A DNA stretch of 62,133 nucleotides from Candidatus Anoxychlamydiales bacterium (GCA_011064875.1 JAAKFV010000001.1:1-62133), one strand, 5' to 3'; counted from the first letter of the stretch, positions 52,471-54,284 are shown. Translations and numbers: made by a program. Notes: a model not told the origin generated them from the letters alone.

Positions 52471-52804
52471 TTTATTACCTATATTTTTAATAAATTAGTT
52501 AAATATTAAATGTAATTATAGCATTTAATTCAATAAATAGAAATAATTTATTTTTATTAAAAAATAATTATATTTTTAATTTAACGCAAAAGTAAAATAT
52601 CACATTAAGAGTAAAGAGTTTATTTTTATTAAAGTAATTTATTGACAAAATTTAAAAATATTCATAAAAAAAAGTTTATATAAGAGGGTATATCAAGTAG
52701 AGAAAAACATAAAAAGCGTATAGTTATTTTTTTAATATTTATAGCTATTTGGTATCTAGCTATAGATATTGCTAAAGCTGTAAAAGGTGAAAGACTTATC
52801 TTCT
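52471..52804. repeat. Copy A of a ~335-bp duplicated leader/intergenic segment (copy B = 53959..54284)
   Basis: Long near-identical runs are shared, for example caataaatagaaataatttatttttattaaaaaataattatatttttaatttaacgcaaaagtaaaatat, aagtaatttattgacaaaat and aagagggtatatcaagta. The copies differ by a few substitutions and a net 8-nt indel. Confidence 0.9.
52699..52804 (+). pseudogene. Start-less 5' fragment homologous to the first ~35 codons of the 54179..54667 gene
   Basis: Aligns to 54179-54284 (..aaaaacataaaaag(c/t)gtatagttatttttttaatatttatagct..gctgtaaaaggtgaaagac..). The ATG is replaced (gtATGGaaaaac -> gtAGAGaaaaac), and homology ends after ~105 nt. Confidence 0.65.
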
Positions 52805-52823
52805 TACAGATATTGGAGCTATT

Positions 52824-52945
52824 GATTTTCTAAACCAATTCTATTTTTTGCAGAGATTTTTGAGCGTGTTCAAAATCTACTTTTTCTTTTGCTTCTGAAA
52901 TATCTATTTTATTCCAAATAACCATAGTCATGTTTTTTGCGATCT
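52824..52945 (-). pseudogene. Internal fragment of mnmE (homologous to 56047-56168), frameshifted
   Basis: gattttctaaaccaattctattttttgcagagattttt..ttcaaaat.tactttttc..tattttattccaaata aligns to the intact mnmE. The reverse-complement frame gives IWNKIDISEAKEKVDFEH.. versus intact IWNKIDICQPTEKVNFEN.., and a 1-nt deletion then breaks the frame. Confidence 0.7.
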
Positions 52946-53004
52946 ATTGCATAGGTGCACTTGGCCTATGTTTTCTAGGAGTAAGAAGTTTTGAACGGTT
53001 TGGT

Positions 53005-53958
53005 TTAATTTTGATTTCGGGGTCCTGTGGATTTCCTTCTTACTCTTCCCAGCATATCTGCCAAACTTGGTTTTTCTTGTCCTCTTCTCGGTGATTTAAC
53101 TAAAGGAGCTTTTGGATGAGGGTTTCTTCCCCCTCCATGAGTATCTAAACACTCAGCTCTATCTTTTTCGGGAATAAGGCTTAGTAGTCTAGTTTTTAAA
53201 TCAAATTTTTCACCGCAAAGATCAGCTAAATGAAATAGATTTTGTCCCCTAGAATCTTGTAAAAGAGCTATATCTTTTCTATCATTTAGAGCTATTTTTT
53301 TTAATGTTTTAATGAGTATATTTATGAGCTTACTATTTCCGTTAACTGATATATCTTCAACGATTTGATTTCCAAAAATGTGAAAAAGAGTCTCTCCATT
53401 AGAATTACGCATTTTAGCTAAAGACGTTTTTTCTGAATCTTGAGATAAATGAAACATGCCTAATAAAGCGCCTAATATAGAGTATTTATTTTCATTCTCA
53501 TGGTTGTTTAATGTTTCTTGAAAAGAATCATGTATAACTATTTTGCATTCATCTCTATCTTTTTTAGGAACAATTTTGAGTATTTGATATACGAAATCCA
53601 ACCCTTCATTTCTACAAAAAGCTGCTAACTTAAGAAAAGTATAACCTTCAGAATCTTCTAAAATAAGTACATTTTTTAAATCATTTTTTAAGTTGTTTGT
53701 TTTTAAAATTGTAATGGTGATATCTACCCAATCTTTAACATCTAGTCCTTTATCTTGATCATTAAAGATTTTAGTTGCCAAACGATGAAGAAGTGTCTCA
53801 TTGTTATCGTTACAAATTTTAATTAAATAGGCTTTCTGGAGGCAAACATTAAAAGTTTGTAAAGCAGCTGATGGATCTTCCGCTTTTAATTCTTCCTTAA
53901 ATCTAGTTTCTATTTCTCTAAGCTTGTTAAAATCAAACCTAACTGAACTACCACTCAT
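53005..53958 (-). CDS. Ankyrin-like modular family protein, two modules plus basic/Pro-rich tail (317 aa)
   Basis: ETLLHRLATKIFNDQD .. FLKLAAFCRNEGLDFVYQILKIVPKKDRDEC, then ETLFHIFGNQIVED .. GQNLFHLADLCGEKFDLKTRLLSLIPEKDRAEC. The tail reads GGGRNPHPKAPLVKSPRRGQEKP.. Confidence 0.6.
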   Translation of the reverse strand: MSGSSVRFDFNKLREIETRFKEELKAEDPSAALQTFNVCLQKAYLIKICNDNNETLLHRLATKIFNDQDKGLDVKDWVDITITILKTNNLKNDLKNVLILEDSEGYTFLKLAAFCRNEGLDFVYQILKIVPKKDRDECKIVIHDSFQETLNNHENENKYSILGALLGMFHLSQDSEKTSLAKMRNSNGETLFHIFGNQIVEDISVNGNSKLINILIKTLKKIALNDRKDIALLQDSRGQNLFHLADLCGEKFDLKTRLLSLIPEKDRAECLDTHGGGRNPHPKAPLVKSPRRGQEKPSLADMLGRVRRKSTGPRNQN

Positions 53959-54284
53959 TTTTATTACCTATATTTTAATAAATTAATAATATAATTATAT
54001 CATATAATTCAATAAATAGAAATAATTTATTTTTATTAAAAAATAATTATATTTTTAATTTAACGCAAAAGTAAAATATCTCATTAATAGTAAAGGGTTT
54101 ATTTTGATTAAAGTAATTTATTGACAAAATTCAAATATCTTAATAAAAAAAGGTTTATATTAAGAGGGTATATCAAGTATGGAAAAACATAAAAAGTGTA
54201 TAGTTATTTTTTTAATATTTATAGCTCTATTGTATTTAGCTATAGATATTACAAAAGCTGTAAAAGGTGAAAGACCCATCTTTT
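53959..54284. repeat. Copy B of the ~335-bp duplicated segment (includes the functional 5' end of the 54179 gene)
   Basis: See copy A. This copy keeps AAGAGGG-N9-ATG (54179). Confidence 0.9.

What the first reader, a model, noticed from the sequence alone, without database searches (positions are those of the whole stretch)
52471..54284. Duplication scars: ~335-bp repeated leader, a start-less gene stub and a frameshifted mnmE fragment between two family members
The segment upstream of the 574-aa gene (52471-52804) is a near copy of the segment upstream of the 317-aa gene (53959-54284). Both include the RBS and the first ~35 codons of the divergent gene 54179..54667. In copy A the ATG is mutated (ATGG to AGAG), and homology stops after ~105 nt. 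About 20 nt further on (52824-52945, minus strand) lies a ~120-nt piece homologous to the middle of mnmE (56047-56168), roughly 80% identical by eye and carrying a 1-nt deletion. In the intact locus the order is ank-like gene, leader, 54179 gene, NDT-like gene, nth, mnmE. The simplest model is a tandem duplication of a unit running from the ank-like gene into mnmE, followed by an internal ~1.8-kb deletion in the left copy. This documents how the ankyrin-like family expands. It also leaves a promoter-bearing leader (with a conserved TTGACA at 52643/54121) now driving nothing on the plus strand, which could yield an orphan transcript antisense to nothing or a small RNA.
Basis: seen in the sequence. 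Interest (0 to 1): 0.62.

Follow-up and report, generated by a model that had tools for sequence, protein, structure and literature searches.

The report
Tandem duplication scars beside ankyrin-like genes
In a marine-sediment chlamydia (Anoxychlamydiales) genome, a piece of chromosome holding a fast-evolving ankyrin-like gene was copied in tandem and then partly deleted; the leftovers are real and datable, but this is an ordinary way for gene families to grow.

Summary
Leader A (52471-52810) matches leader B (53959-54290) at 89% over 340 nt (E 1e-125). It includes a start-less 40-codon stub of the 162-aa gene. One base further on lies a 135-nt, frameshifted piece of mnmE codons ~319-364 (81%, E 6e-28). 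Neither piece occurs elsewhere in the genome.

The order and orientation are what a tandem duplication of [family gene, leader, p162, NDT, nth, 3' part of mnmE] would give, followed by a 1.75-kb deletion. A sister species (G002) carries the unduplicated state. Independent assemblies and unitigs from three metagenomes carry the same junctions, so this is not an assembly artefact.

New points:
- The interval between psd and nth is a rearrangement hot spot across the genus.
- The 317-aa copy lost its middle module and is very diverged (dN/dS about 1) but is still a selected ORF.
- The molecular clocks disagree along the unit. The leader looks young, the scars intermediate and the coding parts old. 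This points to later gene conversion of the leader.

The idea of an orphan small RNA is untested. No RNA runs exist, there is no Rfam match and there is no fold signal. Such a transcript would be antisense to mnmE, not "antisense to nothing". Overall this is an ordinary process, nicely documented, of modest interest.

The parts
50746..52470 (-). fam574: three-module (M1-M2-M3) ankyrin-like family gene. It is the left copy and the orthologue of G002 fam572 and G003 fam559.
   Evidence: ORF. Modules by HMM. 61% and 58% aa identity to the orthologues. No Pfam hit.
52471..52698 (.). Leader A, the non-coding divergent promoter region. It is 94% identical to leader B, with a 76-nt identical core at 52526-52601.
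   Evidence: The shared 76-mer unitig has summed depth.
52567..52596 (-). Best promoter-like site (TTTACT, 18 nt, TATAAT) facing fam574. Its twin at 54046-54075 faces fam317. The -10 is conserved in G002 and G003.
   Evidence: 10 of 12 matches, the two best sites in the region. Alignment.
52642..52677 (+). Relic p162 promoter: TTGACA, 17 nt, TAAAAA. TTGACA is kept in leader B and in G002 and is lost in G003, which lacks p162.
   Evidence: Sequence. Alignment. It did not pass the scan threshold because the -10 is weak.
52699..52818 (+). Start-less stub of the 162-aa gene (about 40 codons, ATG changed to AGA, frame open to TAA at 52828-52830).
   Evidence: (83% aa over 36 residues). 12 stub-specific changes against 1 in the intact copy.
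52820..52954 (-). mnmE fragment (codons ~319-364 of the gene at 55781-57133). It is frameshifted by a 1-nt deletion and now carries a chance 33-codon ATG ORF.
   Evidence: Changes are spread over all codon positions. The 33-aa ORF is called.
52955..53004 (.). 50-nt spacer between duplication junction J1 and the fam317 stop codon. No detectable homologue.
   Evidence: blastn-short and tblastx against family genes, flanks and the whole genome found nothing.
53005..53958 (-). fam317: the right copy, with an M1-type plus an M3-type module (M2 lost) and an unrelated disordered basic tail (residues 274-317).
   Evidence: module tree; dN/dS about 1; AlphaFold pLDDT 77, helical repeats, tail below 50; ankyrin-repeat fold matches; the ORF is too long to be unselected.
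53959..54178 (.). Leader B, the intact divergent promoter region between fam317 and p162.
54179..54667 (+). p162: the intact 162-aa gene with an N-terminal hydrophobic segment. It is the source of the stub.
   Evidence: 87% aa identity to the G002 orthologue.
54298..56042 (.). Segment whose copy is missing from the left unit (1745 nt: rest of p162, NDT-like gene, nth, 3' end of mnmE). This is the inferred deletion.
   Evidence: Breakpoints. Genes.
56043..56178 (-). Source segment in intact mnmE. It encodes the end of the G domain, including the ISAK motif.

Best explanation
The locus records a tandem segmental duplication of about 4 kb. The unit ran from just downstream of an ankyrin-like family gene, through its divergent promoter leader, p162, the NDT-like gene and nth, into codon ~319 of mnmE. 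The event placed a second family gene next to the first and created junction J1 (mnmE codon ~319 joined to the 3' flank of fam317, at 52954/52955). A 1745-nt non-homologous deletion then removed the redundant copies from p162 codon ~40 to mnmE codon ~364 (junction J2, 52818/52820). It left a start-less p162 stub and a 135-nt mnmE fragment, both decaying neutrally. Both family genes kept a complete leader with its promoter. The right-hand copy (fam317) lost its middle module and its long tail and diverged fast, yet remained a selected gene. The two leaders, and probably the stub, were later homogenised by gene conversion, which is why they look much younger than the genes they drive. The structure, junctions, unduplicated relative and discordant divergences are shown. 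The order of events, the conversion and the promoter functions are inferred.
For: The repeats are real and unique to this locus. The fragments lie in the source order and orientation: leader, p162 5' end, mnmE middle, then family gene. G002 has psd, fam143, fam572, a single leader, p162, NDT, nth and mnmE with no scars. Other congeners show the same interval in simpler states. The junctions are present with 0 mismatches in unitigs of three metagenomes, including one 1463-nt unitig spanning 52572-54034. They are 100% identical in two other assemblies. The stub decays on the A side only, with branch counts A 12, B 1, G002 11. Fragment-specific changes fall on all codon positions. fam317 consists of an M1-type plus an M3-type module. 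Its intact ORF cannot be unselected: 0 of 5000 simulations stay stop-free. It folds as ankyrin-like repeats. Evidence for conversion: branch counts for the leader are A 7, B 5 and G002 37 (p=2e-7 against a star tree). In the coding modules the fam574 branch is as long as that of its G002 orthologue (63 vs 57, p=6e-5 against a duplication at 0.7 of the split age). None of the 4 G000-specific mnmE substitutions is shared by the fragment.
Against: No intermediate carrying the undeleted duplication was found in any genome or metagenome. The left boundary of the unit cannot be anchored, because the fam317 tail and the 50-nt spacer (52955-53100) match nothing. Gene conversion is inferred only from discordant divergence; its tract ends and direction are not shown. 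An alternative without conversion exists: a post-split duplication with strong acceleration of both genes. It is contradicted for the M3-type module only weakly (AU p=0.03, with long-branch risk). All counts on the stub and the fragment are small.
Confidence: 0.78

Rival explanations
1. A one-step replicative template-switching event (FoSTeS/MMBIR-like). While copying the locus, the polymerase switched from p162 codon ~40 to the middle of mnmE, copied 135 nt, then switched to the region downstream of the family gene. This would give the duplication and both junctions at once, with no large intermediate and no separate deletion.
For: The two junctions are only 135 nt apart. No undeleted intermediate was found. 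The junctions show at most a few bases of microhomology, as expected for illegitimate switching.
Against: The end product is identical to duplication plus deletion, so nothing here favours it positively. Both pieces keep the source order and strand, which duplication plus deletion predicts directly.
Confidence: 0.12
2. The same duplication, but older than the split from the G002/G003 lineage. Those relatives would then have lost fam317 by homologous recombination between the two direct leader repeats, a scar-less pop-out. On this reading G002 is a secondary state and not the ancestral unduplicated one.
For: The M3-type module of fam317 lies outside the clade of the three orthologues (97/96 support; AU p=0.03). 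The fam574 and G002 branches are equal in both modules. The mnmE fragment is equidistant from all four orthologues and shares 0 of 4 G000-specific changes. 340-bp direct repeats 1.48 kb apart are a ready substrate for such a loss.
Against: It needs one gain plus one loss instead of one gain. The leader and stub clearly coalesce after the split, so conversion must be added. The fragment's own branch (about 0.09-0.14 per site) is somewhat short for that age given dS 0.25-0.65. Long-branch attraction could misplace fam317.
Confidence: 0.4
3. An assembly artefact: a strain mixture collapsed or mis-joined at the 76-nt identical leader core.
For: Unitig depth in run X1 is uneven: 22-33 on the A side and 51-56 on the B side.
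Against: Both junctions lie inside exact unitigs in X1, X3 and X4. One X4 unitig spans leader A to leader B. Depths pair A-left with A-right and B-left with B-right. Two further independent assemblies are identical over 594 nt. Depth in X3 and X4 is nearly even.
Confidence: 0.02
4. Independent insertions or mobile-element cargo: the stub and the mnmE piece were brought in by an IS or another element, not by a local duplication.
For: A relative (L065) has an IS inserted in this very leader, so elements do target the site.
Against: There is no IS remnant, transposase or terminal repeat in 52471-53004. The L065 IS has no match in this genome. Both pieces derive from genes 1.5-3.2 kb away, in their source order and strand.
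Confidence: 0.03

Closest known systems
Tandem segmental duplication followed by deletion and pseudogenisation (duplication-degeneration), as described for paralogous effector and membrane-protein families in chlamydial plasticity regions
   Same: Direct-repeat copies, a novel junction, truncated remnants of neighbouring genes, rapid divergence of the surviving paralogue, and location in a lineage-variable interval.
   Different: The host is an uncultured Anoxychlamydiales MAG and the family is restricted to this genus. The variable interval is psd|nth. It is not shown to correspond to the classical Chlamydiaceae plasticity zone.
Ankyrin-repeat effector families of intracellular bacteria (Legionella, Coxiella, Wolbachia, environmental chlamydiae)
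   Same: The predicted fold matches ankyrin-repeat structures (KANK, DARPin, Notch, TRPV; Foldseek probability up to 1.0). The family also shows repeat modules, a disordered basic/Pro tail, fast evolution and lineage-specific expansion.
   Different: No Pfam Ank hit at E<=0.01. Foldseek E-values are only about 1e-3 and TM about 0.35-0.45. Each 125-aa module is a higher-order unit and not a single 33-residue repeat. Secretion and host targets are unknown.
Concerted evolution by gene conversion between duplicated regulatory regions
   Same: The non-coding repeats are far more alike (94%, with a 76-nt identical core) than the adjacent coding sequence or neutral scars. Their tree conflicts with the gene tree.
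   Different: Inferred from one genome and one sister species. No tract boundaries, donor direction or population data are available.

Membership tests
Tandem segmental duplication with internal deletion | Two colinear copies in direct orientation, well above chance similarity | tested here: met
   89% over 340 nt (E 1e-125). Colinear over 1069 nt at 73% (E 2e-170)..
Tandem segmental duplication with internal deletion | A novel junction joining the distal end of the unit to its proximal start | tested here: met
   mnmE codon ~319 (56178) abuts the 3' flank of fam317 at 52954/52955. The proximal side has no recognisable homologue.
Tandem segmental duplication with internal deletion | Remnants keep the order and strand of the source genes | tested here: met
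   Leader, p162 codons 1-40 (+), then mnmE codons 364-319 (-), as in 53959-56178.
Tandem segmental duplication with internal deletion | An unduplicated state exists in relatives | tested here: met
   G002 C181: fam572, single leader, p162, NDT, nth, mnmE. It may be ancestral or a secondary pop-out.
Tandem segmental duplication with internal deletion | Not an assembly artefact | tested here: met
   Exact unitigs across both junctions in 3 runs. Identical sequence in 2 other assemblies.
Tandem segmental duplication with internal deletion | An undeleted intermediate is observed | tested here: not met
   None found in 31 related genomes, in contigs carrying the exact protein, or in the metagenome scan.
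Ankyrin repeat proteins (Pfam Ank clan) | Significant match to an Ank profile | tested here: not met
   No Pfam family at E<=0.01 for fam143, fam574 or fam317.
Ankyrin repeat proteins (Pfam Ank clan) | Helix-turn-helix repeat solenoid fold | tested here: inconclusive
   The model has pLDDT 77 and pTM 0.64 from a 7-row alignment. Top PDB hits are nearly all ANK proteins, but with E 1e-3 to 1e-2 and TM at most 0.45.
Gene conversion tract | Sequence history discordant with flanking sequence | tested here: met
   Leader branches A 7, B 5, G002 37, against coding branches 63, 164, 57. Fisher test of leader vs neutral scars p=0.002. AU test.
Gene conversion tract | Defined tract ends and donor direction | not testable with these tools
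   Needs several strains or species that carry both copies. Only one genome has them.
Small or antisense regulatory RNA | Promoter and terminator bracketing a non-coding transcript | tested here: inconclusive
   TTGACA with a weak -10 (TAAAAA), below the scan threshold. One weak terminator-like site at 53019-53035 (+).
Small or antisense regulatory RNA | Expression, or a conserved structure or known family | tested here: not met
   No RNA runs hold the stretch. No Rfam match at E<=1. Fold z-score -1.05.
IS or mobile-element insertion | Transposase, terminal repeats or homology to a known element | tested here: not met
   No ORF or homology in 52471-53004. The IS of relative L065 is absent from this genome.

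The most novel reading that the evidence does not exclude
The retained p162 promoter in leader A may drive a roughly 370-nt plus-strand transcript. It would carry 135 nt complementary to mnmE mRNA, including a 41-of-42-nt near-perfect stretch at 52820-52861, and would end inside the 3' end of fam317. That would make it a regulatory antisense RNA newly born from duplication scars, acting in trans on mnmE and/or in cis on fam317. The unusually good preservation of those 42 nt (1 mismatch against 22 in the next 93 nt, p=0.001 post hoc) would then reflect selection rather than chance, mnmE-side constraint or conversion.
Probability: 0.05. Interest if true: 0.55.

Novelty: new member of a known kind. 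Interest (0 to 1): 0.3.

Why it matters
This is a clean, datable example of how a genus-restricted, fast-evolving ankyrin-like (putative effector) family grows in uncultured anaerobic chlamydiae. It marks the interval between psd and nth as a recombination hot spot in the genus. It also shows that duplicated promoter regions can stay nearly identical while the genes they drive diverge at near-neutral rates. That matters for annotation, because the stub, the 33-codon ORF and the mnmE piece should not be called genes. It also matters for anyone using paralogue divergence to date duplications. It does not reveal a new mechanism.

Tried and rejected
- Pfam gave nothing for the three family proteins or for p162.
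- The large protein database returned only fam317 itself, because the length window excludes the 574-aa relatives.
- A profile scan of metagenome contigs failed with the diverse alignment. With the orthologue alignment it found a single extra locus.
- No RNA-seq run holds the stretch, so the transcript question could not be tested.
- Rfam and the fold z-score gave nothing.
- The fam317 tail and the 50-nt spacer (52955-53100) matched nothing by blastn-short or tblastx, including the 3' part and flank of fam574 and the IS of L065. The proximal edge of the duplicated unit stays undefined.
- Microhomology at J2 (ATAGAT and TTTTTTCAA occur in both parents) does not line up cleanly with the junction, so I do not claim it.
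- Unitig depths in X1 hinted at a structural polymorphism. They vary along the whole contig and fit no simple alternative structure.
Their sequences were brought in through alignments instead.
- A purely recent duplication (leader clock, about 0.25 of the species split) is rejected by the coding modules and by the mnmE fragment.
- A purely ancient event without conversion is rejected by the leader and the stub.

Full report
**Setting.** The window is contig C1 of a 1.58-Mb, 107-contig genome with 28% G+C. Its closest relatives are MAGs named Candidatus Anoxychlamydiales from marine sediment. This group was described by Stairs et al. 2020 (PMC7449678). The runs that hold the stretch are marine-sediment metagenomes.

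The local gene order is as follows:
- porin (-)
- psd (+)
- fam143 (-)
- fam574 (-)
- scar region
- fam317 (-)
- leader
- p162 (+)
- NDT-like gene (-)
- nth (-)
- mnmE (-)
- porin (+)

**Observation.**
- Leader A (52471-52810) matches 53960-54288 at 89% over 339 nt (E 7e-125).
- 52820-52946 matches mnmE 56043-56166 at 81% over 128 nt (E 6e-28).
- Neither sequence has another copy in the genome.
- The start codon of p162 (ATGG, 54179-54182) reads AGAG at 52699-52702.
- p162 homology ends at 52818, about 40 codons in, with the frame still open.
- mnmE homology begins at 52820 and ends at 52954 (mnmE 56178, codons ~319-364), with a 1-nt deletion.
- The gap between the stub and the fragment is one base, not the ~20 nt stated.
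- Homology also continues leftwards from both leaders into the family genes, at 73% over 1069 nt.

**Is it real DNA?** Logan unitigs of three metagenomes from different samples and studies break only at the exact repeats: the 76-nt leader core and the 38-nt mnmE core. Otherwise they match with no mismatch.
- A 282-nt unitig covers leader A, the stub, J2 and the fragment.
- A 1203-nt unitig covers the fragment, J1, fam317 and leader B.
- In run X4 a single 1463-nt unitig spans 52572-54034.
- The depths of the shared cores equal the sums of their two flanks.
- Contigs from other assemblies (an ENA 60-kb scaffold, NCBI SDBV01030173, a JGI contig) carry the same gene order. The two compared (the ENA scaffold and SDBV01030173) are 100% identical over the 594-nt scar region.

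An assembly artefact is excluded for practical purposes.

**Comparative state.** The family has no Pfam match and is found only in this genus (4 of 31 related genomes). The interval between psd and nth differs in every species examined:

| Genome | Content of the psd-nth interval |
|---|---|
| G004 | nothing |
| G001 | one 250-aa family member |
| G003 | fam559 and NDT, on one contig; nth and mnmE lie on another contig, so the nth end of the interval is not seen |
| G002 | fam143, fam572, one leader, p162, NDT |
| This genome | the G002 content plus the scar region and fam317 |

G002 aligns with 49208-52818 and again with 53530-57261. It is therefore the unduplicated arrangement. A further relative (L065) has an IS element inserted in the same leader. 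This interval is a hot spot for rearrangement.

**Model.** The remnants keep the order and strand of their sources: leader, p162 5' end, middle of mnmE, then a family gene. This is what results if a unit running from below the family gene to mnmE codon ~319 was duplicated in tandem (junction J1 at 52954/52955). The left unit then lost 1745 nt between p162 codon ~40 and mnmE codon ~364 (junction J2 at 52818/52820). No long homology flanks either junction, so both were illegitimate events. A single template-switching event would give the same product and cannot be excluded. The proximal edge of the unit is not recognisable, because the fam317 tail and the 50-nt spacer match nothing.

**The genes.** An HMM built from the three fam574 modules finds three modules in the orthologues and two in fam317.
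- In the module tree, fam317 consists of an M1-type and an M3-type module, so it lost M2 and the long Pro/Lys tail. Both of its modules sit on long branches.
- dN/dS between G000 and G002 is 0.13-0.26 for housekeeping genes and 0.4-0.6 for the family modules. It is about 1 between fam317 and its counterparts.
- fam317 is not a pseudogene. With the observed number of changes, 0 of 5000 simulated sequences stay free of stop codons.
- Its AlphaFold model is a confident helical repeat (pLDDT 77, residues 8-273) with a disordered tail.
- Foldseek hits are almost all ankyrin-repeat proteins but weak, with E about 1e-3 and TM at most 0.45. "Ankyrin-like" is fair as a description. Membership of the Ank family is not shown.

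**Decay of the scars.** In three-way comparisons (A copy, B copy, G002) the stub has 12 changes of its own, against 1 in intact p162. The changes specific to the mnmE fragment fall on codon positions 1, 2 and 3 as 2, 5 and 3. Variation among mnmE orthologues is mostly at position 3. Both scars are drifting. The 33-codon ATG ORF that gene callers place in the fragment is a by-product.

**Discordant clocks.** This is the new point. The table scales each segment to its own G000-G002 divergence.

| Segment | Apparent age of the A/B split (as a fraction of the species split) |
|---|---|
| Leader | about 0.25 |
| Stub | about 0.5 |
| mnmE fragment | about 0.7 |
| M1 module | about 1.2 |
| M3-type module | about 3 |

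These values come from my arithmetic. The supporting tests are:
- The leader branch counts are A 7, B 5 and G002 37 (p=2e-7 against a star tree).
- In the coding modules the fam574 branch is as long as that of its G002 orthologue (63 vs 57). This rejects a duplication at 0.7 of the split under a clock (p=6e-5).
- fam574_M3 is no further from the G001 outgroup than its orthologues are (45% vs 41% identity). Acceleration of fam574 therefore does not explain the long branch.
- The fragment shares none of the four G000-specific mnmE substitutions.
- An AU test rejects fam317_M2 as sister of fam574_M3, but only weakly (p=0.03). M1 is unresolved.
- The leader is not strongly constrained between species (78-80% identity, close to third-position identity). 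Selection alone therefore does not explain 94% identity and a 76-nt identical core.

The most economical reading is a duplication about as old as the split from G002/G003, followed by gene conversion of the leader and probably the stub. If the duplication predates the split, G002 lost fam317 by recombination between the leader repeats, which leaves no scar.

**Regulatory reading.** The best promoter-like sites in the region are the twin minus-strand sites TTTACT-18-TATAAT at 52596-52567 and 54075-54046. They lie inside the identical core and face the family genes. The TATAAT is conserved in G002 and G003. Promoter-like sites in the region as a whole are not more frequent than in shuffled sequence (10 found against a mean of 15.2), so this is only a lead.

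The plus-strand TTGACA is kept wherever p162 or its stub exists, and it is lost in G003, which lacks p162. Its -10 (TAAAAA) is weak.

A transcript from leader A would contain the complement of mnmE codons 319-364 and would run into the 3' end of fam317. It would therefore be antisense to something. Nothing supports its existence:
- no RNA runs hold the stretch
- there is no Rfam family match
- the fold z-score is -1.05
- only one weak terminator-like site is present

**Verdict.** The process is a known one. The added value is the hot-spot context, the module history of fam317 and the evidence for leader homogenisation. Interest is modest.

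Noticed in passing
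L065 3561-4727 (SDBT01053862.1), equal to window position ~52532: A G002-like relative has a ~1.17-kb IS (DDE transposase, frameshifted into 63- and 241-aa ORFs) inserted in the same leader. It sits between the predicted family-gene promoter and the start codon. Another transposase fragment replaces the porin upstream of mnmE. This IS is absent from the window's genome.
   Followed up: partly
window 34000-62133, run X1: Unitig depth is uneven along the contig in one metagenome: 31, then 22.5 over fam143 and fam574, 33 over the stub, 51-56 over 52.8-57.6 kb, and 41-43 beyond. It is nearly even in X3 and X4. This suggests a strain mixture in which fam143/fam574 is the least shared segment. No alternative structure could be derived.
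   Followed up: partly
window 50201-55102 compared with L009, L010, L012, L013: The interval between psd and nth differs in each of five congeneric genomes: empty, one family gene, family gene plus NDT, or a full set with p162 and fam143. The NDT-like gene and p162 are themselves lineage-variable cargo. p162 has distant paralogues on contig C42 here and on two contigs of G002.
   Followed up: partly
window 52375-52470 and 53863-53958: The first ~25 codons of the family genes are essentially unalignable between paralogues (42% nt identity). They are also very diverged between orthologues, although the leader abutting the start codon is conserved. This may be a fast-evolving N-terminal signal such as a secretion signal.
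   Followed up: no
window 52930-53094 (+): A 54-codon plus-strand ORF overlaps J1 and the 3' end of fam317. A 33-codon minus-strand ORF (about 52830-52931) lies in the mnmE fragment and is called as a gene in public assemblies. Both look like by-products of the scar.
   Followed up: no
window 52820-52861 vs 56043-56084: The first 42 nt of the mnmE fragment differ from mnmE at 1 position, against 22 of the next 93 nt. This part encodes the conserved ISAK (G5) region, so part of the effect is constraint on the intact gene. Conversion or chance could explain the rest.
   Followed up: partly
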